A DNA stretch of 64,000 nt from Pocillopora damicornis (Eukaryota): assembly GCF_003704095.1 (NCBI RefSeq), contig NW_020845603.1, forward strand, positions 1-64,000. Reading direction: 5' to 3'. The notes beneath the pieces were generated by a model, which had not been told where the DNA came from, ran no database searches, and saw only the letters and a list, made by a program, of their open reading frames with translations. Below are positions 23,466 to 57,718 of this stretch, piece after piece. How positions within the stretch are numbered: the first letter of the stretch is position 1; each line of letters begins with the position of its first letter. The translations under genes were made by a program, and so were the position numbers.

Positions 23466-24488
23466 CTACTGAATAGATGCTTCTTCTAACCTAGTAGCTA
23501 CAGAGTCTGTATCGCTCGTATCTCCAGCCTGTTCAGCAGATTCCTCTGAGGTCTGTGTGGTGTCATTGGTTGCCAGTTCTGTTGAGGACTGCTCACTTTC
23601 GGGTTGGTTTTCAGTGTTACCTCCTTTATCAGTTGCTATGGGGTCTAAAGTTGGAGTAGGAGCGGTTGGATTTAATCTCGATGTGGCTGGAATGCGGATT
23701 CCAGCGACACCTTTGCTCTCGACATCCTTCTTATCTCGTTTGATTCTTCGCCTTCTACCAGGTTCATTCTTACGTGTTTGAAACATATTTTCAAAGTCGA
23801 TTACATACAGAAACCCAGCGATTAGTAAAGTACAAGATCTCTGTCCACTCTTAAAAGATTTTTCTAATTCAGGAGATGTTTTCTCGTCATAAGACCACCA
23901 TCCATTACGACCCTCGTAATACCAAACAAACTCGTCCGCGTCATTTTCGTCGCAAGATTTCTCTTTCGATTTCGCAGCTTTTTCCTCCTTATTAACTTCT
24001 TCTACAACTTTGATAAGCGTTGGATTCTCCAGGTAGTCTACGCTGAGAGAATGACGGCATAGAGCGCACCGTTTACTCCGCAAAATGACTCCTTTGATGC
24101 ACAAGAAGCAGAAAATGTGTCCGCATGGAAGTTTTACAGGATAAAAACAAGACTGTAAACAAACTGAACAATCAGGGTTGTGATCCATCTCTTCGATCGT
24201 TTGAATCACTACATCTTCGGAAAAACCTAAAAACAATCAAAATTTTATTACATTTTTGAGTTGCAGGAGTCATTTATCAAACGTTCTGTTTAAAGGCAAT
24301 CATTACAGAAAGCAGTTTGTTTTCAAAAATATGGTGGCCACTTTGTGAGCAGCTGCCTCGCACGCGGAATAATCGAACTCAGTTGAAAAGTAAAATCACC
24401 TACCCTCGGTCGATGGCTTTTCTGTCTCCTCTAATAAAATTGAAGATTCTGTGCGGTTTTCAGCCGAATTAACGGTCGCTTCAGCCAT
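23466..24488 (-). CDS. RNF146: E3 ubiquitin ligase RNF146/Iduna (RING + WWE), 281 aa; exons 24488-24404, 24226-23466
   Basis: C3HC4 RING (CSVC...LPCGHIFCFLCIKG...CALCR) and WWE domain (WYYEGRNGWW.YD...IAGFLYVIDFENM.Q.R...RRRIKRD); phase-1 GT-AG intron joining an ATG exon MAEATVNS. Confidence 0.93.
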
Positions 24489-25824: not shown

Positions 25825-27224
25825 GATTTCATTTGAAGAAAAAAGATGGGAAGAGCATAATATATTTATAGCACAGCACTGACTGCAGCTGTAAAATGAT
25901 TAAATGAAAATGCTGACGATAAACAAACTTGCTTTAACATAATAGCCTTTCTTTCAAATTTCTAGTTAATCTTGTTTGGCAATCGTTATTTAGCTGCAAG
26001 AAAACAGTGTCAGCGACAACGCTAGATTTATGACGTTTGTTGAAACAGGTTCTGTTTTCAATTTTACGCGTTTCACCAACAGTTTGCGTCGTAAAATGGA
26101 AAAAAAAAAAAACGTTAGGCAAATGTAACGACGCAAGAACTAGACTTCCTGTTGTTCTTGATGTAACCGATCCCTTTAGAATGGTGGATCGCACCTGCGA
26201 ACCGCATGCCTGTTTCCCATTTCCACTGCACGATTATCTTGCTGCCTGCGCCATTAGGTTTCATGATTTCGCCTTCGTTTGGCCTTACTTTCGCTTTGCA
26301 CGATGTGGTACAGGTGAATTGTAAATATTCAAATTCCGTCAAAACTTTGAAACCATACAAGCTGTTTTGATTAAAGGCGCTTAAACGCAATAAAGCCAGT
26401 TATTTTTTTGTGGCAGATTATGGAGTGGATATTAGATGAATATGCAAAAACATCAAGTACTTATCGCCAACAAAAACAGCCGCCCCATTTGACAGTACTC
26501 TTATTACATGATAAATTATCATGTCAACATGACATCATTCACGACGACAGTCGATATACGAAAATCCGAACGCCAGTCAAAAGAAGTATTATCCTTTTAT
26601 GTTGCAAAAGGGTTTAAGTTACTGCAACAAAGTTTTCGCGTCGCTTGCACGAATCTTCGTTTGAGCAACTTTGCGGGATCGATCTTTTAAGTCCTCGTTT
26701 CAAATTCCGTACAATCGGTTTTTCTTCATCATTCTCTATTGCTCCGAATTAAGTTTTCAATTTGCAGTGTACTCAATCATTTGAAATGATAAATCCTGTT
26801 TTATCTGATGTTAAGGAACTGTGAAAACAAGGTAGATAGAAAAAACGCGTAAAGGTTGTCATCGCGCGCGTTGTCGATGCTCGAGTCCTCGTTGCTCGCA
26901 CGCTGACCACTTCGGTTCATATACTCTGCGGCATTACAAGAAATTCTCACGAAGCGTTAGCAGCTTTTCACAAAGGAAACGGCACAGCTGGGAAAAATAG
27001 CTGTTAAAATGCTTTAGTTTTTCGCCGCCCGTCGCTTGGGACTTAAGGTGAATCGTGGTGTTGTTTAAATCAATAACATTTTTCGTTCGATAGCGTGGTT
27101 TAGTAAAATGTCACTTCTACAGACGCTGTGCTGTGGTTGGCAGACTTTCCACCAAAAGCAGATGAGTTAAACGATCCCCAGCGTGTTGTATGTTCACTTC
27201 GAGCGCAAATGGATATCAACACCC

Positions 27225-28031
27225 ATGGAAATGGAAAAATCATTGAACTCCAGTCGAAATTTTAAACTTCCACCGATTCAAGGCGCTGTTCCGGCGGCGA
27301 GTATTCTTCGGCAACCACCAAGGCCAACTTGGCAACAAGATCAAGCGCGAGCCAATGCGGTTGCCTTGCCGAATCATGGCGCATCAGTTAAACCACGAGC
27401 AGTAATTCACATCCCGAAGGATCCATTCCCAGGACGATACAGAAGTCCTCATATTAGTCACAACATATCGAGTGTATCGACACAGAGACTCGCTTCAAAT
27501 GCAGCGATCGACGAGAAATACGGCGATTCGAAGTTAGATTTTGCACCGCGCCGACATCAGCTTCCGCAGTCGTACTCTGTTCTACCTCCGATTCAGAAAC
27601 TCAAAGAGCCAGTCGATAGAGGAAGGCAGGTAACTGCGGCACAAGACAGAACTTCTCGCGGGGAAAAAGAGAACAACAATTTAAATGTTACTAATAAACC
27701 AATTGGGGATAATAGCTCGCAAAGTGATAATCAAAAAAGCGATGACCCGCGAAAAGTTGGCAACAGTAATGGCAAAAACGGCGACAAAAATTGTTCCCGC
27801 GTTGAAGCGGGAAAAGACTCGTCTTCCAGAAAGAAACAGAAAACAGACAATCAGGATAACGAGACTGGAGAAAGAAAACAGAGCCCTACGACGCTGTTGT
27901 TTTTAAAGGGAAAACGTAAAGGTCGAAGGGTCGGCGTTTGTGTGGAAAATGAACCGGCTTTAATCAACATAACTGAACAGCTAAAAGAAATCTTTCTTCG
28001 CAGAAATATGGAAGAAATGTACCTAATTTAG
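27225..28031 (+). CDS. Uncharacterised intronless protein A (268 aa): two LPPI motifs, low-complexity linker, C-terminal PKI-like pseudosubstrate and NES-like helix
   Basis: Long ORF from the first ATG at 27225. Shares KLPPI, P.SY.VLPPI and the C-terminal ~45 aa with the ORF at 36498-37385, which supports coding status. The function call is motif-based inference. Confidence 0.8.
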   Translation: MEMEKSLNSSRNFKLPPIQGAVPAASILRQPPRPTWQQDQARANAVALPNHGASVKPRAVIHIPKDPFPGRYRSPHISHNISSVSTQRLASNAAIDEKYGDSKLDFAPRRHQLPQSYSVLPPIQKLKEPVDRGRQVTAAQDRTSRGEKENNNLNVTNKPIGDNSSQSDNQKSDDPRKVGNSNGKNGDKNCSRVEAGKDSSSRKKQKTDNQDNETGERKQSPTTLLFLKGKRKGRRVGVCVENEPALINITEQLKEIFLRRNMEEMYLI

Positions 28032-31000
28032 CAGTGTGCACTTGACAACCGAGTTTCAAATGGGCAGGTGTAAGTTTAATTTCGTGAAAGCTGTATTTGT
28101 TTACAGTTTAACGCAGCAGTGAGGACAGGATCTAAATTCACTCTAAGAGTAGTGAAAATCGGTCGAGAAAAACATCCTACCGGTCACGTTTCTTGCATCA
28201 TAGGCCGTGTGAAACGTGAAAGTTTTCAAAGCCTTTGCTTCGTCGCATCTCGGTTATTTTCTGTCTTTCACACTGATTAAAAAGTCAAAAGCTTGGGATT
28301 ACCATAACAACTGATGAAAATTTCGACAATTTTGAGTCTCCTTTGCCAGCTTATTTATTACGTTTTTCCATCTGTGGGTTCGCTCTCTGGTCATGAATTG
28401 AAAAAAGGTTCGAGGATTTTCCTTGATGATGGAAAAACTATGCAAAACAAATTGAAGCGATTACAAATCGTACTCAAAGAAGGAAAAGAACATTTCCTAT
28501 TTAAATAGATCCAATAACATTTTACCGCTTACATATGGTTTTACTTCTCTTAACTTACCAAGCAAATAGACGAAATCTATGCCGGTTGAAGCGTTGAAAT
28601 AGATTGACACTGAATTAATCTTTTTTGGTTAAAGGCGCTTTATTGAAGGAAAAATGTCTTAGGGAAAGGTGAATTAGTGCTATAATGACACCGAACTTGG
28701 CTAAATGTTACTTGAAACGATGAAGCTTTCGGACTCAAATATAACTCAGATATAAAAGAAGTATCACGTCTGCAAGACTAAAAGCTTAGTCATATTTATT
28801 CATAGAATTGCGACAAACTTTTGGAAACATTTGCAAATAGACTATTTAAACCTGTGAATTCGCTTCCGAAGATTAACTTCAATTGGTTTCCATTTTAAAA
28901 TTTTTGTAACATAAAACTTTTAATGTTTTTAAGAATCCATGATGTTAATATGTAAATAAAATGTGAACCTCAACTTCTCTGGTTCCCATGGCAGTCGAAA
29001 TTCTGATTAACAGCGTTCCTGAGAATTAGAAAGAATTCTTAGCCTTTCCGGTAAATGGGGTAACTGTCTATCGTCTGAGGACTGATGTGAAAAATTTCAC
29101 CCTGGTTGGCGAGCTCCGGTTTTGATCTTCACTTTAATCTTTTACAGATGATGGAAAAAGATTTGAAGAACATGTTATTCTACAAGTTTATAAAAGCACT
29201 AGGTCACTTCTTGACCAAAAAAAAAACCTATTTTAGCCTAAAATTTCGAATAGGTACCGATTTTTCTGTAATCGTTTGAAATGAAAGCTTGAGAGTAATG
29301 AAATGTCGCAAATATGATTAAATGCATCATTTTCACAACGAATGGCTAATACCAAAATCTGTTATCTAGCAACAGAGACAATTCTACTTACAAGAGCTAA
29401 AATAACCCTATTCTTCAGTAAAAACCAATTTATGGAACCTCAAAAGATATGAAATAAAAATGTCTAACAGACTTACACGAGGGTTGTTACCCCATAGCAG
29501 TGAATGTCGGTGATAGCGAAAAATAGTAGAAAAGAATATTGGTGAAACATTGTCGTCGATTTGCTTTCGTTTACATCATCGTAAGAGGGTTTCAATTAGG
29601 TATACCGTTAACTGTAAAACGGCAGAAAAATTTAGCCGTTAGGCGTAACGATTGATAAGTCGTAGAAAAGGTGAAAGGTGGAAATAGTTTTTTTAATCGC
29701 AAAGGAAAGAATATTAAGAGTTACATTTAAGAGCCATCACTGCATTGAGACTTCTTGAAACGAATAGGGATCGAATGATGAAAAAAGTGTTTATTTCAGA
29801 TATGGTGCCAGTTGCCATCAAAATCAACACTTTTTTTATCTTAATTTTTAATGAGAAATCTTTTTTGCCCTTTCTGGCGTGAAAACTGTGATTGGCTCCT
29901 TGTTATTCTCCACAGCTGCTTGCAAGCCATGTATCCTGAGAAGTAGAATGAAGCTGAAATCAGCAATTAGAAGTTCGGAAATTCTATAGTTTTGTGGCGC
30001 AAAAAAAGGAAGACATATGTTCCATCTTTTCGAGCAGCCGTTTTGTTTTGTTTTGCTGTAAAAACAACGGAAGTGNNNNNNNNNNNNNNNNNNNNNNNNN
30101 NNNNNNNNNNNNNNNNNNNNNNNNNNNNNNNNNNNNNNNNNNNNNNNNNNNNNNNNNNNNNNNNNNNNNNNNNNNNNNNNNNNNNNNNNNNNNNNNNNNN
30201 NNNNNNNNNNNNNNNNNNNNNNNNNNNNNNNNNNNNNNNNNNNNNNNNNNNNNNNNNNNNNNNNNNNNNNNNNNNNNNNNNNNNNNNNNNNNNNNNNNNN
30301 NNNNNNNNNNNNNNNNNNNNNNNNNNNNNNNNNNNNNNNNNNNNNNNNNNNNNNNNNNNNNNNNAGGCAATAAACACTTACCTTAGGTTACTTAGGTTCT
30401 CTGACTCCCCTGTCTTGCGTCACTCTTGTGTTTTCTAGCATTTTCTTACTTGACACCTACTAACAAAATAGCATTTAACATGCCCCTTGTACTTCCCTGT
30501 ACCCCTGTGTACAGAAATTAACTAATTACGTGGGATGCCTGTGGCAGACCACGTAAAAAAATTCGCTAGAGAGTGGTCGTAGTAGTCAGATATGGAAATT
30601 AGCCACGTGTTTGAGCTTCTCACTGAAGTGAAGCCTTGTTGGCTGGGGTTTCTAATTGGAGCAACGCTATTTGCGCGAACAAAATCGATTGACGAAATTT
30701 GCTCTAGATTTTGTTTGGCTTGTTTGCCTCGTAGGCAGTAAAATATGGGATCTGAAAAAGTGTTTTTGCCGAAGACAGGGAACATACACTGAAAAGGCAA
30801 TCTTCGCCGTTTTGCACTAAGGCAACGTTCAGTAACACGTACCTTCGCAGTCTTTGTGATAGTTTTTTTTTTAAAGATCACTGAGCAGGTTAGACTGATC
30901 GAAATTTCAATCTTCACTTATTACCGAACTATTTAAAGCCTAATGCGGTTCCTGTGTAATTTACACTCTATGTAAATGATTTTTTTTGTCCGTTCCAGTC

Positions 31001-31605
31001 GTTTGAGCACCTGGCTTATGGTTTTCGTTCCCCCTTTCTTCCCAGATTCTCCATACCGTTTTCCAAACGTTTGCTACAGTACTGACAAGGAGAATTTGTT
31101 TAACAATAAAGAGCTTCTACGGTCGGTGGTCATTTTCTTTATTCTCGTGACCGTAATGTTTGATTCAGGAGGGATAAGGTAAGGAGAAATTAGATGCTGG
31201 TCGCAGTTACGAGTTTTAGGGTTAAGTAAGCTGTCAGAAGTAAATGAATTGAGCGACGTTCCAACCGTTTGCCAACGGGATCTCTGTAGCTTAGTTATAA
31301 TGTGTCAGACCAGGAAATCCAGAGGTCCGATCCTCATGGAAGACTCAGGCATTTTCTTTGCCATATGTTGGTGCAAAATGATAACACCGTTCTTTAATTA
31401 AGTGATATTCCTATAAATTTTGCAAACGAACTCTTTGGAAAACGTTTTTAACGTGGTGCATATAGGTTAAGAGTGTACCTTGAAGTTGTCGTGTTCGCCA
31501 TTGTTCGACTGACTTTCTCTGCAGACTTTCTCTATTGTGAGCAGTTGCGGTTTGAGTTGAGGTTGGAATTGGGGTTTGGGGTTTGGGTTAGGCTTTTGGT
31601 TTAGG

Positions 31606-32574
31606 CTAGGACGAGGGCAAATGTGATGGAACAACGAAAGTGGTAAGTTGTGTCGAGAGCAGATTTCCTTTCGATGATCTTTTGCGAATGAGGTGCCTCA
31701 ATGTAGCTTTTAAATGAGTATTGCTGTATCCATACACGAAGGGGTTCACAACAGAATTTAAGAAAACCGAGATGCTTAAAAACTGATACACAGGTGCTGT
31801 CCAACGAGGCCAATCCAGCTCAGAATTGTACTGCGTTTTCAACCTAAGGCTGAGTCCTAAAATAGGCAGCCACCACTCACCAAAGTAAGATAACAAAAGA
31901 AAAACTGTAATAAGCTGCTTGGAAGCCTTTTTAGCTCGGCTATTCGTAGCTAAATTCGCAGGACTAACCCTTGTGTGGCTAATCTGTTTACGGTGACGCC
32001 AGGAGAGTTTTAAGATACAACCGTAAATACTGAGCATCACAAGTAAAGGTGCACAGTAATTCAGCAAAAATAGCGGGATAAACAGGTCTATCGGCAGAAA
32101 ATGAAAGCAGGATGAATGCTTCTGAATTTGTGACCTCTGAAAAGTGTCAGCAGCAAAGACAAAGGCTGATGAACCAAAGGAATATAACCACAGTAATAGA
32201 GCTGTTATCCAGACAGTCTTATCATGAATCATGTTGAAGCGGAATGGGTAAATGATCCGAAGAAAACGAGCCACAGACACACTGCAGAAACTTAAAATTG
32301 AAGCAGAGGCTGTCACTAGATAAGCAAATGTTCTTAATTTGCATCCGAGCACGCCATATTTCCAAGTTCCTGAGATCAGATGTTGGAGATGAAAAGGCAC
32401 AACCACAAGAGGAAACAGGATATCTGATACAGCGAGGCTTACCATGAATGGATTGACTGCTTTTCGAATCTCGCGTGAGAAAGTGAAGAGCAGAATAAAA
32501 CCGCCGTTAATGACCACGCTGCCGAGAATAAGAACGATGTAAATACAAGCCGTCGTGTAATGATACCACTCCAT
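31606..32574 (-). CDS. Intronless rhodopsin-like (class A) orphan GPCR, 322 aa
   Basis: Seven hydrophobic segments; TM1 IN, TM2 SLAVSD, W.YG..GC, TM3 SVARF (DRY variant), TM5 P...Y, TM6 WLP, TM7 NS.VNPFVY. Confidence 0.9.
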   Translation of the reverse strand: MEWYHYTTACIYIVLILGSVVINGGFILLFTFSREIRKAVNPFMVSLAVSDILFPLVVVPFHLQHLISGTWKYGVLGCKLRTFAYLVTASASILSFCSVSVARFLRIIYPFRFNMIHDKTVWITALLLWLYSFGSSAFVFAADTFQRSQIQKHSSCFHFLPIDLFIPLFLLNYCAPLLVMLSIYGCILKLSWRHRKQISHTRVSPANLATNSRAKKASKQLITVFLLLSYFGEWWLPILGLSLRLKTQYNSELDWPRWTAPVYQFLSISVFLNSVVNPFVYGYSNTHLKATLRHLIRKRSSKGNLLSTQLTTFVVPSHLPSS

Positions 32575-34149: not shown

Positions 34150-35050
34150 GCAAAGATGAGTACAACAAGTAACTAAGTGAATCTGTAGGTTTGTAGTAAA
34201 CACTAGTGCATAGACCGTTGCCTTGTCTAAAAAAGCCAAAAAAGTGCCGGGAAATTTCCAGGTATATTTCAGAGCCGGGTGAAAGGAATTGACGGCGGTT
34301 TTAAATTGAGTGAGCTCCTCTCTGGTAGAGGAGGTATAGTGCCGATGCAGTCATCAATGAGCGACCGTAGAGTTCAGGTTTGGGGCCGTTGTATTGACCA
34401 AAAAACTGGTGTTTAATAAAATCTACGAAAAGATTGGTGGAGCTGGGTCCCATTTTAGTACCCATGGCTACACCATTAGTTTGTTTGTAGTAGCTGCCAA
34501 CGAATGAAAAGCAATTGAGCGTTAGGACTGGTTCGGCTAGACAGAGTAGTGTTTCAGAGCTAGATTCCTTGATAGTGCGTTGATCAGAAAAAAGGTTTGA
34601 GGGCCTGGAGACCTTTGTCATTGGGAATGACAGTATAAAGAGATGTAACATCCATAGTGAAAATAAGTTTGTTTTGGCCAAGGAAATTTAAGTCGCGAAA
34701 AATCGCCAAACAAGCACGCATCCAAACCAGTCGCTAGATAATTTAATCTCTATAATCACTCTAAACAGCATATGGCAGTGTGTAGCCTTTCCCTACATCT
34801 AGGCAGTTCGGAAAGCCGCAAAACTCGAGAACAAATTTATCTTTAAAATCGACACTCTTGATCCTCACGGTATCGCTTTAAAAAGACATTTACAACCCAT
34901 AATTCCTCCGACCACTCTGACTAAGGGCTAACGCTTTTTAAAGAAACTATGTAATTTAGCATTATCAACTGAGTTGATAACGTAAATTGGCCACCGTAAA
35001 GAGTTTAAAAGCTGACGTTTCGAGCGTTAGTCCTTTCGTCAGAGTGATTG
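34150..35050 (-). mobile_element. Rearranged Penelope-like retroelement remnant (RT fragment on -, GIY-YIG tail on +, hammerhead cores)
   Basis: Minus ORF 34301-34681 contains VLTLNCFSF...YYKQTNGVAMGTKMGP, typical of PLE RT, with frameshifts around it. Plus strand ~34810-34875 resembles a frameshifted PLE endonuclease C-terminus (..KFIFKIDTLDPHGI). Boundaries approximate. Confidence 0.8.
35008..35045 (-). ncRNA. Minimal hammerhead ribozyme-like motif associated with Penelope-like element
   Basis: Minus strand ctCTGACGAaaggactaacgctcGAAAcGTCagc has the CUGANGA and GAAA cores and a GUC triplet; stem II is imperfect. Confidence 0.6.
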
Positions 35051-36497: not shown

Positions 36498-37385
36498 TCA
36501 CCATAACATGCAGAGTTCCTCCATTGTTTGGCGAAGTAAATTATCTCGAATTATATCGACAGCTTTTTTCAACGATGGATCAATCTCGACACACAGTGCA
36601 ACTCGCCGAGCGCTTTGCTTACTTGCCAGGAATTCAACAGCCTCTTTACTCAGCTCTAGTCTTTCCAATTCATGCACAACCTCACACGATGTAACTTCAA
36701 CATCTTCGTTAGAAACGCTCGGCAATGTCTCCTCGTGATTATAATGATCCCCCTGTTTTTCAGGAACTGCACCAAACGTTTCCATAGTAGGCCGTTCGAT
36801 TCGACTCTCGAACGTTCCTTGTGTGTCGTTACCATGGTCTTGTCTTGTAGCGTTATTTCTCGCTGTAATCCGTTGGTTTTCGGCGAGTCTAGTTTTCGAT
36901 GAAGGAGACAGTCCGCTGTCTGAGCGTTTTCTCTGTAATGAACTTCTCCTCGGACCGTTTATTTTGTCTTGGTCGGATTTTAAGATACTCCGAGAAGTAT
37001 GCCACACATTTGTCTGTCCAATAGGAGGAAGAACTTTGTAAGAATTCGGATAATTGGTCGGTGCTTTCTCTACGTGTTTTACTGTAAGGCGAGGACTCTT
37101 CGTTTTCTGTGGTCGTGGTACTGTTCCATTCGTGGTTTTCGAATTCTGAGCCTTGAGAATTTTTGGGAAAGATGTATTCCCGTTTGTGTTTGATGTCGTA
37201 GAAATCGTTGACGAATTTCCTATGCTTCGACCAACGAGAAGTTCATTTTTTATAATTGGCGGTAATTTTACCGCTCGGCTGTTTAGATCAAATTGCGGGA
37301 AACTTCTCGGATAAGACTGGAATTCGGCTTCCTGTTTCGCCGGCCTTGAGGCACGAATTTGCCGCCCTGAGTATAAATGCGCCAT
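36498..37385 (-). CDS. Uncharacterised intronless protein B (295 aa), paralog of protein A
   Basis: ORF from ATG 37385. VKLPPI, PNSYKVLPPI and EFLASKQSARRVALCVEIDPSL...LRQTMEELCMLW align without gaps to the protein A C-terminus. Confidence 0.8.
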   Translation of the reverse strand: MAHLYSGRQIRASRPAKQEAEFQSYPRSFPQFDLNSRAVKLPPIIKNELLVGRSIGNSSTISTTSNTNGNTSFPKILKAQNSKTTNGTVPRPQKTKSPRLTVKHVEKAPTNYPNSYKVLPPIGQTNVWHTSRSILKSDQDKINGPRRSSLQRKRSDSGLSPSSKTRLAENQRITARNNATRQDHGNDTQGTFESRIERPTMETFGAVPEKQGDHYNHEETLPSVSNEDVEVTSCEVVHELERLELSKEAVEFLASKQSARRVALCVEIDPSLKKAVDIIRDNLLRQTMEELCMLW

Positions 37386-42500: not shown

Positions 42501-45500
42501 TTAGCTAACCCAATCAATTCCAGACCTGCTGCAGAGTAAAAAAACAATGGTCCATTTCACAGTTGCATGCTTGGTTGCCAAGCCTTTGAACAGGAGTGAG
42601 GCTAAGGGTGACCTTGTTCTGATAAAAACGTTTCTGCTTTCCAAATGTAAATTACTTTGTTATCATACTGACTAGATACTAGTCTCTATCACAACAAGGT
42701 CACCTTCAGCCTCACTACAAGTCAAAGGTTTGGCGACTGAATACACAACTGTAAAATGAGCTATTCATTTTGCCAAGCTTACATATATTGACGACAAAAC
42801 CCTGTTCTGACCTTAAAAACTGGGCTTACACCTTTCAATTTCACAGTCGCACATGCAGACTATAAACCCTTAACCCCTTAACTCCCAGAGGTGATTAACC
42901 TGTAACTTCTTCTTTTAACATCCATACTCTACCCAGCAAACAGGTGATGAGAAAACCCAAACTTATCAGGCAGAAGTTGTTATCTTGATCTGACACCACA
43001 TTCTCTAAACTGATTTACTAAGAAATGTGTAGCAGCTAGAGGGGAGAATTAACAATCAGATCTTTGGAGTTATAGGACTGAGATATAATAATTTTTACCA
43101 ACCTTCTTCGTGGCAGATCCATGACTTGTGTCAATCTCACTGAGCAGTGATTCAAACTCATCAACACTATCTTTCACCCCAGTCCCTTCTCCCCATCTCT
43201 TCCGAGCACTCCCATAGCCACTGGCATGGCCTTGAACATTGACAGCAGCCCTTTTGTTCTCATTACCACTTCCAAAATTAAATGAATCCTTTCTTTCCAC
43301 TTGTGGTGCCTGTCTTTGTTGTTGCGCTTGTGGTTGTGGTTGTGGTTGGGGTGGCTGTCTTTGCTGAAGAGGTTGTGTTGGTTGGGAGGGCTTAGGTAAG
43401 TTCTGGCCAACTTGAAAGTAGGGGTATCTAAGAGCCTGTGCACATGTAGGTCGCTTCTTGGGATCCCACATCATCATGTCCCTCATAAGTTGAATGGCTT
43501 CAGGGCTTGCATTTGGTATCAAGTCTTTTAATGCTGTTGGCATCTAAGTTAACAAAATTTTGTGGATGTTTGGCATCAATAGCCTCTTTCAGAAAAGGCT
43601 GCTGATAGTCTAAAAGATGGCTGTGCCATAAGGCAGGATCCAGACACAAGATCCTGCTAGCAGGCTTAACCCTACTTAAGAGTCCATTTAACCCTTTCAT
43701 TTCCAAGATCTCTTAGTAATTCTTCTTACAGTCTGCCATACATTGCTTATAATTTTAGTTTGGAGAATTTGGTATTGAATCAAATGATAATCCACTATTT
43801 GATATTTTTCTACCTTCTCATCACTTGTCTATGTGAGATTGTATTAGTATTGTAAGGAGAAATTCTGTCTTGGTCATGACTGGGAATGAAAGGGTTAACA
43901 GACAGCAGTGAGGGGTCTTAAAGGCGATAGTAGACTGCTAGTAACCATTGTTCATTGACACCCTTTTTATTTTAGGAAACAATCTCATATGGTGTTACCC
44001 ACCAATAATTTCTCTACCACACAATCAGAAGGTATGAACTTCAATTCTTATGGGGACCCATAAAAAACTTTTTGTCACATGTGCATGGGAGATGATGCAC
44101 ATTTTTCCTTATGTTAAAAAATTTTTAACGTGGCCTGTAACATTCTCCATACAAGTTAAGAAAGTTCCTTATACAACTAAACAGATACCATACCAAATCA
44201 CTGGAGTTTCTATTTATGCCAAAAAAAACTAACCACTTGCATAAACTTGAAATTCATAGCCGCTGCCAGCTTGTGACCTTCTGGCCAGTCTTCCTGACAA
44301 AGAAAATATAAGAAAATATAAGAAAAATTATTATCATAAGAACTGAAACAATTACTAGCCAAAGTAAACTTTAAATTATTGTTTTAGATGCATATCCATC
44401 ACCAGGAAGATGCTCCAAGCGGTGTTCTCCTTTTCAGGCAGTAACCGGTAACATTTACAGCCTGTAGTACCTCTTAATACCGTGTAAAACTGAATGGAAT
44501 TCATGAAAATTTGACTAGTAAAAGGATTGCTTTACTGGTTTGAAAATTTATTTTACCTGTCATGCTTAAAATAAGGGAGAAAACTGTCCAAGAGGCTTAA
44601 AATATAACTATGTAGACTACATAGCATAAAAAATCATGACATTTTTTATCTGGCAAGGAGGCATTTCTGACAGGCCTGTTGAAATTTCAACAGCATGCTT
44701 TTTAGATCTTCAATATTCTGCAAATAATTTACATATTTTTTTTGGCAAGGAGGCATTTCTGACATGCTTGTTGAAATTTCACAGCATGCTCTCTAGATCT
44801 TAAATATCCTGTAGTTAATTTATATTTCACAATGCCAAACACCTCACATACACAAGGCAATAAAATGACAGTATGATGACTCTTTTTATCAACAATGATT
44901 ATAATTTTTCTTACAATGAAGTCATTGTAAATATAAAAAGTTATTTAGTAGACAAGCTTAAGTATAATCAATGCAAGAAATTGCCTGCCTCTTAAATATT
45001 CCTGCTCTAGCAGGATGCATGTGGCCATTTTATGCATCACTAACAACAAATTTTGGGAATAACAAATAATTCTGTAAGCTACAAGTATATTTGTTTAAAT
45101 TTGCCTTCTGTTTGCCTAGTAGTGGCACAATTATTGTTGGGCCAACAGTGTCAAGCTGTCAACAGTATCTAATGTACAAGTGTGTGAAAACTAACCTTTG
45201 ATGGTGTGCCAAGAACTTTGCATATCTTGAAAATCTCATCAACTTCACTACTGCCAGGAAAAAGAGGCCGGAGAGTGTAAAGCTCTGCCATGATACACCC
45301 CACAGCCCACATATCAATTGGTGAACTGTAATTTGTTGAGCGTAGCAACACCTCAGGTGCGCGATACCTGTCAGATAAAAAATAGAACTTAGGTGCTTAC
45401 AACATATTAGAAAATTGAAGATGGATAATTACATTATTGACTGAATGGGAGGGCCAGATGGGAAAATATTTGGCTCAAGGTCATAACGTACCAGCCGAAC

Positions 45501-48465
45501 ACATTGAAGTCCATGTGTCTTGACAGAGAGCCAATTCTTTCCTGTTTGGACTAACCCAATTCAAGGCTGATTAGCCTTTACTGCCCCAGTTTACACCACT
45601 GCATGCACCCTCATATATGGATTTTTATCCAGTGATATTTGTCTGAATAATAACCTTTCCTAACAAAGATCTCAGAATACTACCCAAAGTGAAAAAGAAA
45701 TTTGAGTCTTCAACGATATCATTATCAACTTAATAGTATTAGAAAAATTTTGCTGTTTGTAGCTATTGTAACTCTTACCATCTTGTAGAGACATAATCTG
45801 TGTAAGGAGGACGCGATCTGATTTCTCTTGCTAGGCCAAAATCAGCAATCTTCACAAGCTCTGGTCCAGTACACAGCAAGTTTTCAGGTTTCATGTCTCG
45901 ATGAAAGAACCCTGTGTGATTCGAAGCAATACATAGATTATTTAATAAAATACAGCTCATACATTTTTTTAGCTTTTGTTTGTTATATCTTTAAATAGCA
46001 AATTTGATTTAATGTTAAATGGAGTAAATAATTACATTTCTCACTTTCTCTTGATTGAAATAATAGACTTGATTTAAACAAATTTTCCACATCTCTTCAC
46101 CCTTTAACTCCTAAAGTCTGACTGTTAATTCTCACCTCTAGCTGCAACACATTTCCTGATAAATTAGTTATGAGAATTTGGTCCTCAAAGAAAATAAAAA
46201 CTCCTCCCTGATAAATTTGATTATTCTCATTGTCTGTTTGCTGGATAATGTATAGATATTAAAGGGGGAACTTACATTTTAATCATTTGTGGGAGTTAAA
46301 GGGTTAAAAGAGACATTTAACCCTTTAACTCCCAAGATCTAATTAGTAATTCTCCTTACTGTCTGCCATATAATTCTTATGTGAATTTTGGAGAATTTAG
46401 TATTGGATCATGAACTACCAATCCCCTAATTGATATTTTTCTTTATTCTCTTCAGTTGTCTGCTTGATATTGTATTAATATTGCAAGGAGAAATTCCATT
46501 TTAGGCACTCATGGGAGGTAAAGGGTTAAGGTTCATACTTACTCTGAACACCAAAGATTTTGGTTAAGTTTCCCTAACCCTTGAAATTCAAATGAGTTGT
46601 TATGTTCAGTCTGAACCTAGAGAGTGCTCAGACAAAACTTTGATATATAACATCACTTATGCATTGTACATCTCCAAGTGATGTAAAATTTGCATCAGAC
46701 AGAAAAAGCATCTCAGCTCTCAACCATTAATAGCCCCATCTTACCATGTTTGTGTATGAAGGCAAGGCCTTGAAGAACTTGATAAATGATATTCCTAATC
46801 ATAGATTCTGGAATCAATTTATCCCTGAAAAAAAAAATGTAATGACAATTGAAACAACAAACCTTTAAAATGTAGTAAATATCACAATGAGTAGGTCTCC
46901 ATTTAACCCCTTCACTTCCAAGATCTCTTAAGTAATTCTCCATACTGTCTGCCATACAATGCTTATAATTTAAGCTCTTAAGAATTTAGTATCAGATCAA
47001 ACAAAAATCTCATAATTGATATTTTTCTATATTCTCATTATTTGTCTGCTGATTTTATATGGATATTATAGGGAGAAAGTATGTCTTGATCACTGCTTAG
47101 AGGGGAGAGTTAATGTCAATTTTCACATTATAGTTATATTTTTACCTGCTTTTCATCATCTGATATAGATTCTCTTTCATGTACTCAAAAACAAAATATA
47201 ACTGGTCATTTTCTCTTATAACTTCCTTCAGCTTCACCACATTTGCATGGTTTAATTTCTTTAGTGACTAGAAAAAAAAAAAGTATAACAATGATTACCA
47301 TTCACTAAAAATGTCCACATAATTTGGCACATTAATGTTTTCACTAGGCATATTGAATTTATTAGCAATGTCTAACTAGCAATAACAGTCTCCAGTTTGA
47401 AATCAGTGTCTCAGTATTGCATTTGCTTACAATGAAGTATTAAAAACAGCAAGATATATATTAAAATTACTAGTAAAAACTATGTTTATTTCTACAGCTC
47501 AGATCAAACATTTAATTTCACCGCATAAAATCCAAAAACTTCATGTCACCACAAGAATAGTAGTTTTTAAGACAATGACAAATTCCTTCCTTCTTCAACC
47601 TAACTTTGCATAAAGCACATGGACCTTGCCACCCTTGCTTTTCCTTTTTAACAAGAATTAAAAGTCAGTCAACCAGATCAAGGTTGTTTCCTTGGCTGAA
47701 CAATTGAAGACAAAATTTCTGCACAGCCTCATACTTCATTATGCTTACAGTTCTTGGATAAAGAAAACAATGATGCGGAAAATAGATTATCTTTGTTTTA
47801 GAACAACATGGGGTTATACAGAAATCTTTTCCGATTGATTTTAAGGGGAACTGGGTAACAATGAATTGTGTAGGCTACACACACCTATATGCAAATGCTA
47901 TTTATCAGACAATCTTTAGGTGCAAATGATAATCTCTTAATTATGACAGATTATCCCTTGCGCTGGGCTGTGCATTCTAAAGGCTAGAGAATTTTTATTT
48001 CACAGTTCACCAACGAGTAAATACAATATACCTGATACGTCTAATAATAAATATCACACCTAGAAAAATATGGTTAAACCTCCTCAGTTTATCACGGAAC
48101 AAAGTGACTCCTTTTGAAACTGAGACGTCCATATCTTTCCAAATTAAATCCAGAAGGCCTAATAAAGTGATAAACCTACCTTAACTTCGCGGAGATTTAT
48201 ACATTCTTCCCATGAATAATACTTCTTTTTCATTCTGAAAAATTAAAACAACAATTGGTTTTACGGAAGCCAATTAACAAAGTGCTAAAGTGTTAAAAAT
48301 TTCAATAATCCTCCATCGCGTAAGTATGAATTGAAGGCCACGCACGGATGAAATCTGAGCTTACATTTTAATTGCAACTGTCTCTCCTGTGTCATGATTT
48401 CTTGCTAACACAACTGATCCATAAGTTCCATCCCCGAGCGTCTTTAAGTTCTGGTAGCGTTTCAT
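39571..48465 (-). CDS. MAK: MAK/ICK (CILK1) family ciliary Ser/Thr kinase, ~538 aa; exons 48465-48365, 48234-48180, 47267-47146, 46824-46745, 45911-45779, 45367-45196, 44293-44234, 43543-43103, 41116-41076, 40701-40460, 40243-40096, 39592-39571
   Basis: [61 protein letters not shown] (TDY loop), tail motifs [15 protein letters not shown] and RTNWSVKYGG. The 12 exons sum to 1617 nt in frame with GT-AG junctions. Probably co-ortholog of vertebrate MAK and CILK1. Confidence 0.93.
41150..42285 (+). mobile_element. Putative non-autonomous Helitron/Helentron-like insertion in a MAK intron
   Basis: Subterminal inverted repeat actgggatacctg (41152) / caggtatcccagt (42251), then a small hairpin cctg-ctca-cagg and a CTAG end (42281-42284); broken ORFs inside. 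Confidence 0.5.
42547..42765. mobile_element. Long-hairpin MITE
   Basis: Imperfect inverted arms of ~80 bp (..gagtgaggctaagggtgaccttgttctgata / tatcacaacaaggtcaccttcagcctcact..). Confidence 0.75.
42870..43072. mobile_element. TTAA-MITE copy (second subfamily, also at ~18290-18482 and ~60627-60830)
   Basis: ttaacccttaactccc start; shared gtgattaa..gtaacttct...ccagcaaacaggt...gagaattaacaatcagatc sequence. Confidence 0.75.
43688..43898. mobile_element. TTAA-MITE copy
   Basis: ttaaccctttcatt(t)cc...ggaatgaaagggttaa TIRs. Confidence 0.85.
44645..44810. repeat. Diverged ~92-bp tandem duplication
   Basis: tggcaaggaggcatttctgaca...gttgaaatttca..cagcatgct...tagatctt occurs twice. Confidence 0.75.
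46096..46529. mobile_element. Two adjacent TTAA-MITE copies (~46096-46287, 46317-46529)
   Basis: ccctttaactcc...gggag(t/g)taaagggttaa termini on both. Confidence 0.85.
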
Positions 48466-56770: not shown

Positions 56771-57718
56771 ATGGAGCTTGGTTTTCCAATAGATGTTATA
56801 CTGTTCTTTACATCTGCTATTTTCGGATTTGTTGTCTACTCCATCTACTTTCGACCGAAGGAATCACTTCAAACTTACAAGGTGGTTTCGAAACGGTTCA
56901 GAGGTTCCACTTTGTGTAAGACTCTCGGCCTGAATGAATTTCACGCTATTAAGGACAGATTTTCATCGGTGAAAGAAGTTTCAAGTGCAATTAAAAAAGC
57001 TGGTTTAGAGTCGAGCAATCTTATTATTGGTATTGATTTCACGGCGAGTAACGAATGGCAAGGAAGAAAAAGCTTCGGTGGACGGTCATTGCATCACGTT
57101 TTCAACAACACCAAAAGGTTGAACCCCTACCAGCGTGTTGTGCAAGTTATAACCAAAACACTCGAACCGTTTGACGGAGACAAGCTAATTCCAGCATTCG
57201 GATTCGGTGATTCCGTGACTAAAGGTCATAGCGTGTTTAGTTTCAACGAGGACGGCACTCCGTGCCAAGGGCTGTGCGATGTTTTGAAACAGTACACCGA
57301 TGTTGTTGGCCGAGTATCTCTAAGTGGTCCGACTTCATTTGCGCCGATCATCAACAAAGCTATAGAGATCGTCAAGCAGGATAAATCATACAACATTTTG
57401 GTGATAGTAGCTGATGGTCAGGTTGTAGAGGAACACGAACGTAGCACAAGGGAAGCGATTGTAGAGGCGTCGTATTTTCCACTTTCGATCATTGTTGTTG
57501 GAGTAGGAGACGGTCCATGGGATCGTATGCATGAGTATGACGATATGTTGCCGCAAAGACGGTTCGACAATTTTCAGTTTGTTGAATACGAGGCTGTTAT
57601 ACGCAATGCGAAACATCCAGATACTTCCTTCGCTCTTCATGCGCTCATGGAAATACCAGACCAATATAAAGTCATACAGGAATTGGGATTGATCAAAGCG
57701 AAAACCAAAGATGATTGA
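56771..57718 (+). CDS. Intronless copine-type vWA domain protein with N-terminal TM anchor and no C2 domains (315 aa)
   Basis: GLESSNLIIGIDFTASNEWQG, SLH, NPYQ, IPAFGFGD, LSGPTSFAPII..AI, ILVIVADGQV, PLSIIVVGVGDGPW, RRFDNFQFV, ALMEIPDQY; hydrophobic VILFFTSAIFGFVVYSIYF at the N-terminus. Confidence 0.9.
   Translation: MELGFPIDVILFFTSAIFGFVVYSIYFRPKESLQTYKVVSKRFRGSTLCKTLGLNEFHAIKDRFSSVKEVSSAIKKAGLESSNLIIGIDFTASNEWQGRKSFGGRSLHHVFNNTKRLNPYQRVVQVITKTLEPFDGDKLIPAFGFGDSVTKGHSVFSFNEDGTPCQGLCDVLKQYTDVVGRVSLSGPTSFAPIINKAIEIVKQDKSYNILVIVADGQVVEEHERSTREAIVEASYFPLSIIVVGVGDGPWDRMHEYDDMLPQRRFDNFQFVEYEAVIRNAKHPDTSFALHALMEIPDQYKVIQELGLIKAKTKDD

What the first reader, a model, noticed from the sequence alone, without database searches (positions are those of the whole stretch)
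27957..28031. CRM1-type NES pattern right after the pseudosubstrate in both paralogs
Seen: A ends ...LINITEQLKEIFLRRNMEEMYLI and B ends ...LKKAVDIIRDNLLRQTMEELCMLW. Both contain L-x3-M-x2-[ML]-x-[LM], and A has a second match, I-x3-L-x2-I-x-L. Known: the PKI NES LALKLAGLDI has this same Phi-x3-Phi-x2-Phi-x-Phi spacing and lies downstream of the inhibitory site, exporting PKA-C from the nucleus. Inference: the complete inhibit-and-export architecture is present. The helix could instead be an AKAP-like or dimerisation helix.
Basis: partly seen in the sequence, partly recalled or inferred. Interest (0 to 1): 0.7.

Follow-up and report, generated by a model that had tools for sequence, protein, structure and literature searches.

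The report
Conserved tail helix of coral kinase-blockers
Two neighbouring coral genes belong to an unnamed family of corals, anemones and soft corals whose proteins end in a decoy site predicted to plug protein kinase A, followed by a very conserved stretch, predicted to be a helix, that fits a nuclear-export pattern but more likely serves as a second grip on the kinase.

Summary
The motifs are there as described. They form the end of two intronless paralogues (A 27225-28031 +, B 36498-37385 -) of an uncharacterised anthozoan family. But the pattern is weak evidence: 44% (A) and 27% (B) of shuffled tails match it; spacer residues are as conserved as the hydrophobic ones; a published NES activity profile passes this register in 0 of 26 A-type and 3 of 36 other members (it also fails the coral's own PKI, so it has low power). 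A's second match scores better (26 of 26) but is lineage-specific. The upstream PKI-like site is solid in A (P-11 aromatic, invariant P-6 Arg; modelled on PKA-C at 0.80 against 0.00 for controls, probably by likeness to PKI) and degenerate in B's lineage. An RII-type P+2 Cys is kept in 61 of 62. Best reading: an auxiliary docking helix (0.4); true NES 0.3; oligomer or anchor 0.2; AKAP under 0.1. The genome also has a canonical short PKI.

The parts
27225..28031 (+). Gene A, single ORF, 268 aa (the second ATG at 27231 is the start shared with orthologues)
   Evidence: covered by unspliced contigs in poly(A)/cDNA runs of four studies, about 26674-28967, with uncovered flanks
27267..27278 (+). 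A: first LPPI motif (L15-I18), function unexplained
   Evidence: invariant or nearly so in family alignments; two LPP[ILV] motifs in 61 of 62
27573..27593 (+). A: second motif YxVLPPI (Y117-I123), function unexplained
27882..27917 (+). A: PKI-like helix and turn (S220-R231) with P-11 Phe226 and P-6 Arg231
   Evidence: P-11 aromatic 23 of 26, P-6 Arg 26 of 26 A-type; helix 221-228 in the model; confident contacts in the complex model
27924..27941 (+). A: pseudosubstrate RRVGVC (R234-C239; P0 = Gly237, P+2 = Cys239)
   Evidence: RR 62 of 62, P0 Ala/Gly 62 of 62, P+2 Cys 61 of 62; complex model
27960..28028 (+). A: conserved C-terminal helix region (L246-I268, P+9 to P+31), the subject of the finding
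   Evidence: helix 249-264, pLDDT 94 for residues 251-260, last four residues extended; conservation
27969..27998 (+). A: lineage-specific class-1a pattern I249-L258 (best NES candidate in A)
   Evidence: 26 of 26 A-type match and pass the NESmapper profile
27996..28025 (+). A: shared class-1a pattern L258-L267
   Evidence: 62 of 62 match the pattern; profile score -0.5, below the threshold of 2
36498..37385 (-). Gene B, single ORF, 295 aa, paralogue of A
   Evidence: 37% identity over 43 C-terminal residues, E 1e-8; only patchy low-depth RNA contigs in 2 of 4 runs
36651..36680 (-).
   Evidence: raw 3.5, adjusted 15.8; passes in 10 of 36 non-A members
36591..36608 (-). B: pseudosubstrate RRVALC (R260-C265)
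36504..36578 (-). B: conserved C-terminal helix (270-294), containing the shared pattern L284-M293 (36507-36536)
   Evidence: one unbroken helix 270-294 in the model

Best explanation
[quoted passage not shown] Steps: (1) shown: family, conservation, fixed spacing, transcripts of A. (2) Predicted: P-11 aromatic, P-6 Arg and the Arg-Arg pair dock as in PKI. (3) Inferred from a published RII/SMO result: the P+2 Cys would sit against PKA-C Cys199 and could lock the complex under oxidation. (4) Inferred, untested: after a short helix cap the P+9 to P+32 helix packs on the kinase and supplies affinity, which would explain why B's lineage keeps the helix while losing PKI's high-affinity residues. 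The NES pattern would then be a by-product of helical periodicity.
For: No insertion or deletion between the Arg pair and the helix: Leu at P+9 in 62 of 62, chain ends at P+31 or P+32 in 61 of 62. Non-hydrophobic positions are as fixed as hydrophobic ones: K/R at P+17 62 of 62, D/E at P+18 62 of 62, Arg at P+22 56 of 62, Glu at P+26 59 and P+27 61 of 62; in A-type 5 of 6 spacers of the shared register are invariant in 26 of 26. Xu et al. report that true NESs conserve the hydrophobic positions more than the spacers, while false positives are more conserved overall with no favoured position (PMC3442415, passages). The first half of the helix (P+9 to P+20) is conserved yet lies outside the shared NES register. 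The non-A lineage lacks P-6 Arg (1 of 36) and hydrophobic P+1 (7 of 36) but keeps the helix; SMO likewise pairs a weak pseudosubstrate without the P-6 salt bridge with an auxiliary helix (PMC13186710, section 7 and passages). Kinase partner: complex score 0.80 in three runs, best of three controls 0.00, runs agree in at least 72% of contacts, partner pLDDT at least 61 (mark reached by 51 of 78 solved and 2 of 108 mismatched microbial pairs, 39 of 65 and 2 of 126 eukaryotic); this pass probably reflects likeness to solved PKI complexes and concerns residues 220-241 only.
Against: No call shows the helix touching the kinase. The hydrophobic faces of the two halves of the helix are about 130 degrees apart (phases 156 and 290), which fits two different partners as well as a kinked arm. 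Fixed spacing discriminates little: vertebrate PKI has its NES at P+16 (PMC6488578 Table 1, PMC7723848) and this genome's PKI at P+17. All substitutions at the four NES positions stay within L/I/V/M/F in 62 of 62, and Glu-Glu between the second and third hydrophobic residue occurs in 3 of 12 validated class-1a NESs. The resemblance to the R-subunit helix is not significant (33 of 100 shuffles as high). The kinase in the model is a seal stand-in with a 34-residue insertion.
Confidence: 0.4

Rival explanations
1. The helix holds a working CRM1 export signal, so the protein inhibits nuclear PKA-C and carries it out like PKI. In A the signal is more likely the P+12 to P+21 register than the shared one; in stony-coral B it could be the upstream 236-245 motif.
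For: Pattern kept in 62 of 62 with only L/I/V/M/F at the four positions; accessible, at the end of a low-confidence chain, and only two class-1a matches per protein; A's model turns from helix to extended at 265-268, as true NESs tend to (PMC3442415); A's second register passes the NESmapper profile in 26 of 26 (raw 5.0; 5.1% of shuffles as high; 2 of 3,204 background windows reach 5); functional logic of PKI (PMC7723848).
Against: Consensus precision is only 4-12% even in known cargoes (PMC3442415); shuffle rates 44% and 27%; shared register passes the profile in 0 of 26 and 3 of 36 (low power, the coral PKI's own motif scores 0.5); the residue between the last two hydrophobic positions is Tyr or Cys in 57 of 62 but polar or charged in 12 of 12 validated class-1a NESs by my reading of PMC6488578 Table 1; the chain ends in a run of 4-5 hydrophobic residues in 60 of 62, with a terminal Trp in 32; B's model stays helical to residue 294; no single candidate both scores well and is shared by the paralogues.
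Confidence: 0.3
2. The helix dimerises, or its hydrophobic end anchors the inhibitor to a third protein or a membrane, giving local PKA inhibition; an NES-like pattern could be masked in it.
For: Two offset hydrophobic faces and an all-round hydrophobic end at a fixed distance from the stop; Cys four residues from the end in most non-A members; two further conserved LPPI motifs point to other partners.
Against: No partner identified; the Cys is Tyr in all A-type and absent in several others; no Pfam, PDB or Foldseek match.
Confidence: 0.2
3. The helix is an AKAP-like site that binds the D/D domain of the PKA regulatory subunit.
For: Amphipathic periodicity at about 100 degrees for P+9 to P+20; the genome has an R subunit with a D/D-like N terminus.
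Against: A recalled AKAP pattern matches 0 of 26 A-type and 8 of 36 others, only in an off-helix register; in the natural register the central position is Lys/Arg in 62 of 62.
Confidence: 0.07

Closest known systems
PKI alpha/beta/gamma (Pfam PF02827)
   Same: Aromatic at P-11, Arg at P-6, Arg-Arg-x-Ala/Gly-hydrophobic in A-type; a tail profile matches PKI(5-24) weakly (E 1.2) and ranks the coral PKI's site above all 4,600 background windows; an NES-type pattern downstream.
   Different: About 240-360 aa rather than 70-76; inhibitor at the C terminus; no Pfam match for A or B; downstream part not alignable to PKI and in another register; P+2 Cys; two LPPI motifs. A canonical PKI exists separately in the same genome (49.4 bits, over the cut-off).
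PKA RII inhibitor sequence
   Same: Cys at P+2, which in RII forms a disulfide with PKA-C Cys199 (PMC13186710); Glu at P+4 (49 of 62) as in the coral R subunit.
   Different: No D/D or cAMP-binding domain; P0 is not phosphorylatable; helix similarity to the R-subunit linker helix not significant.
Smoothened and ARHGAP36 PKI-like motifs
   Same: Pseudosubstrate embedded in a larger disordered region, with a nearby element adding a second function (SMO auxiliary helix, PMC13186710; ARHGAP36 degradation signal, PMC5059767).
   Different: Stand-alone protein with no known domain; the helix lies C-terminal to the site, whereas SMO's lies N-terminal; no homology tested or found.
Class 1a CRM1 NES (PKI, MEK1, STRADalpha)
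   Same: Spacing 3-2-1; Glu-Glu between the middle hydrophobic residues as in MEK1 and STRADalpha.
   Different: Tyr/Cys between the last two hydrophobic residues, hydrophobic run to the chain end, Met-rich, spacers as conserved as the core.

Membership tests
CRM1 class 1a NES | Hydrophobic spacing 3-2-1 | tested here: met
   A 258-267 and 249-258, B 284-293
CRM1 class 1a NES | Spacing conserved in orthologues | tested here: met
   62 of 62 shared register; 26 of 26 A-type for the second
CRM1 class 1a NES | Accessible, outside a folded domain | tested here: met
   pTM 0.19 and 0.22, isolated helices only
CRM1 class 1a NES | Hydrophobic positions more conserved than spacers | tested here: not met
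   criterion from PMC3442415; no true-NES control family was run
CRM1 class 1a NES | Activity-profile score at or above threshold (NESmapper, re-implemented) | tested here: inconclusive
   shared register 0 of 26 and 3 of 36; A second register 26 of 26; coral PKI motif also fails
CRM1 class 1a NES | Helix turning to an extended strand at the last two hydrophobic residues | tested here: inconclusive
   extended in A, helical in B; chain ends fray in models
CRM1 class 1a NES | RanGTP-dependent CRM1 binding and leptomycin-sensitive export | not testable with these tools
   needs bench work; the one complex job went to PKA-C
PKI (PF02827) | Match to the family HMM | tested here: not met
   no hit for A or B, none among the 25 of 32 families listed for 62 members, E 0.21 for 1 of 16 tails; the genome search finds other loci, not these
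PKI (PF02827) | Arg-Arg-x-Ala/Gly-hydrophobic pseudosubstrate | tested here: met
   A-type 26 of 26; window B yes, but only 7 of 36 non-A members have a hydrophobic P+1
PKI (PF02827) | P-11 aromatic and P-6 Arg | tested here: inconclusive
   met in A-type (23 and 26 of 26); P-6 Arg not met in others (1 of 36), aromatic 34 of 36
PKI (PF02827) | About 75 aa, inhibitor at the N terminus, NES at P+16 to P+25 | tested here: not met
   268 and 295 aa, inhibitor at the C terminus, 0 of 62 in that register
PKI (PF02827) | Inhibits PKA-C | not testable with these tools
   model supports binding only
AKAP helix | Paired small/aliphatic residues at i, i+3/4, i+7/8, i+11 (pattern recalled) | tested here: not met
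   0 of 26 A-type; Lys/Arg at the central position in 62 of 62
PKA regulatory subunit derivative | Homology of the helix to the R-subunit linker helix | tested here: not met
   best window in the coral R subunit is that helix, but 33 of 100 shuffles score as high

The most novel reading that the evidence does not exclude
Anthozoans have a second, independent class of PKA inhibitor that joins a PKI-type N side, an RII-type P+2 cysteine able to lock onto PKA-C Cys199 under oxidative stress, and a terminal helix that docks on the kinase or exports it: a stand-alone, redox-latched PKA off-switch, duplicated into a tight (A) and a conditional (B) form before stony corals and anemones split.
Probability: 0.2. 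Interest if true: 0.72.

Novelty: new variant of a known kind. Interest (0 to 1): 0.45.

Why it matters
Few endogenous pseudosubstrate inhibitors of PKA are known (R subunits, PKIs, ARHGAP36, Smoothened). A family held nearly invariant at its C terminus across corals, anemones and soft corals, beside a normal PKI, would be a further independent solution, and its native P+2 cysteine would link PKA inhibition to oxidation in animals prone to heat and light stress. The NES claim alone matters less: the pattern is common and PKI export is already textbook.

Tried and rejected
Pfam: nothing for A or B. PDB by sequence: only weak hits, best YBL028C E 0.01 (taken as chance) and PKI(5-24) E 1.2; A-lineage full-length profile one compositional hit. 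Foldseek on the B model: no match (low-confidence model). ESM Atlas: no usable hit. R-subunit origin of the helix: not significant. AKAP pattern: fails. CaaX reading of B's end: Cys not kept family-wide and last residue Trp; not pursued. Complex model: residues 242-268 are not among the confident contacts; the tool states that this is no evidence either way, so it neither supports nor counts against docking of the helix. No CRM1, D/D or homodimer model was run (one job only). RNA contigs over B are patchy, which does not show absence. A further paralogue in the genome: none found with two protein queries. Literature searches for this family found nothing relevant; only the open-access library was searched. 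Earlier scan findings: none in five look-ups. The family tree is the quick one; the careful search did not finish.

Full report
Observation. The 75 bases are the last 24 codons and stop of a 268-aa single ORF, A (27225-28031 +). Its paralogue B is 36498-37385 - (295 aa); they align only at the end (37% over 43 residues, E 1e-8) and at two LPPI motifs. Positions below are relative to the pseudosubstrate residue P0 (A Gly237, B Ala263). A is covered by unspliced contigs in RNA runs of four studies, about 26674-28967, with empty flanks; B only patchily in 2 of 4 runs (contigs show presence, not level or strand).

Family. Searches with the two tails gave 34 and 38 proteins; a profile of 16 tails against 1.84 billion representatives gave 38 at E up to 0.001. 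The five named members seen are all 'uncharacterized' anthozoan proteins: Oculina, Nematostella, Actinia, Dendronephthya, Xenia (10 of the 27 new hits were looked up). That the window is from a stony coral is my inference. I aligned 62 of the 118 protein ids obtained, leaving out near-duplicates, fragments and records with extended ends (for example P0003, P0035, P0084, P0086, P0095). A quick tree splits 26 A-type from 36 others with support 100. Two genome queries found only these two copies. The 62 are related, not independent, samples.

Is the NES pattern more than chance? A single match is not: 44.1% of 20,000 shuffles of A's tail and 27.2% of B's contain one, and five other window ORFs hold 17 in 1,817 residues. 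Published precision of NES consensus patterns is 4-12% (PMC3442415, passages and sections 9 and 11). Its conservation is real: P+21/25/28/30 is L/I/V/M/F in 62 of 62. But the spacers are held as tightly (K/R P+17 and D/E P+18 62 of 62, Arg P+22 56, Glu P+26 59, Glu P+27 61), Leu P+9 is invariant, and the chain stops at P+31 or P+32 in 61 of 62. The same paper notes that false positives are conserved without preference for the hydrophobic positions. The residue between the last two hydrophobic positions is Cys or Tyr in 57 of 62, but polar or charged in 12 of 12 validated class-1a NESs by my reading of Table 1 of PMC6488578 (section 10). In favour of an NES, 3 of those 12 have the same Glu-Glu pair, net charge of P+16 to P+30 is zero or negative in all 62, and A's model ends extended, though B's stays helical.

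Activity profile. I re-implemented NESmapper's trained profiles from its supplement (PMC4168985, passages and supplement 3 parts 1-3), without its N-terminal short windows or overlap filter and without checking it on its test set. The shared register reaches the threshold of 2 in 0 of 26 A-type and 3 of 36 others; A's second register in 26 of 26 (raw 5.0; 5.1% of shuffles as high); B's upstream motif in 10 of 36. The genome's own PKI motif scores 0.5 and also fails, so a low score does not exclude an NES.

The inhibitory half. A-type members have P-11 aromatic (23 of 26), P-6 Arg (26 of 26) and hydrophobic P+1 (26 of 26), the PKI determinants (PKI 5-24 as printed in PMC5059767, passages; P-6 Arg to Glu203 in PMC13186710, section 7). 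Others keep the aromatic (34 of 36) but not P-6 Arg (1 of 36) or hydrophobic P+1 (7 of 36). Cys at P+2 is kept in 61 of 62; in RII this residue forms a disulfide with PKA-C Cys199, and the coral PKA-C exon has that Cys. A model of A 215-268 with a PKA-C and ATP scored 0.80 in three runs against 0.00 for the best of three controls, with at least 72% agreement and partner pLDDT at least 61 (mark reached by 51 of 78 solved and 2 of 108 mismatched microbial pairs, 39 of 65 and 2 of 126 eukaryotic ones; untested for peptides and disordered chains). The kinase was a seal stand-in (P0218) with a 34-residue insertion, alignments were not used, and the pass probably reflects likeness to solved PKI complexes. 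Confident contacts cover A 220-241: Phe226 with kinase 230/234, Arg231 with 198, Arg234/235 with 131, which I map to Tyr235/Phe239, Glu203 and Glu170 of the standard numbering (offsets inferred, numbering recalled). The helix is left unplaced, which says nothing either way.

Comparison with PKI. PKI alpha's NES is 37-46 with P0 at 21, so P+16 to P+25 (PMC7723848, passages). The genome holds a canonical 70-aa PKI (49.4 bits, over the Pfam cut-off; matches PKI alpha in PDB at E 8e-4) with a class-1a pattern at P+17 to P+26. A and B do not match the Pfam family and 0 of 62 members fit PKI's register. They work like PKI at the active site, by prediction, but are not PKI family members.

Mechanism. 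I favour a second docking arm on PKA-C (0.4): all faces of the helix are conserved, the linker never changes length, and B's lineage keeps the helix while losing PKI's affinity residues, much as Smoothened pairs a weak pseudosubstrate with an auxiliary helix (PMC13186710, abstract, passages and section 7). This step is inference only; fixed spacing also holds roughly for PKI's NES, and the two halves of the helix have hydrophobic faces about 130 degrees apart, which would suit two partners. A true NES keeps 0.3, oligomer or anchor 0.2, AKAP 0.07 (recalled pattern: 0 of 26 A-type, Lys/Arg at the central position). The readings are not exclusive. A remembered likeness to the R-subunit linker helix was tested on the coral R subunit and was not significant (33 of 100 shuffles).

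Novelty. Six searches of the open-access library found no description of this family (listings only), and five look-ups in earlier scan notes were empty. Interest 0.45.

Noticed in passing
L003:1498-1707 - (G000:C2336): Canonical 70-aa PKI with a class-1a pattern at P+17 to P+26.
   Followed up: partly
L004:1423-1662 + (G000:C1122): Second short PKI-like ORF (18.4 bits, under the cut-off) with Cys at P+1 and no clean class-1a pattern by eye.
   Followed up: no
L005:657-1775 + (G000:C483): Intronless PKA regulatory subunit, 372 aa, whose inhibitor site has Ala at P0 (RRRAVAAE); whether it is type I or II was not tested.
   Followed up: partly
window 27267-27278, 27573-27593, 37254-37265, 37020-37040: Two LPPI motifs are the only other conserved parts (both present in 61 of 62 members); no literature found for the motif.
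   Followed up: partly
window 36501-36512 (-): B-type members end Cys-x-x-Trp, CaaX-shaped, but Cys is Tyr in A-type and missing in several others; possible lipidation site.
   Followed up: no
P0024/P0041 and P0020/P0063: A and B orthologues share the same longest-contig length (701,472 and 2,665,691), hinting that the pair is linked in other genomes; not checked directly.
   Followed up: no
window 23466-24188 (-), 31606-32574 (-), 43070-46955 (-), 56771-57718 (+): Neighbours: RING+WWE protein, a rhodopsin-family GPCR lying between A and B, exons of a kinase that looks MAK/ICK-like (label recalled), and a copine-domain ORF.
   Followed up: no
window 31080-31202 and 34950-35050: Two short stretches draw very high RNA contig depth with many loose ends, as for dispersed repeats.
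   Followed up: no
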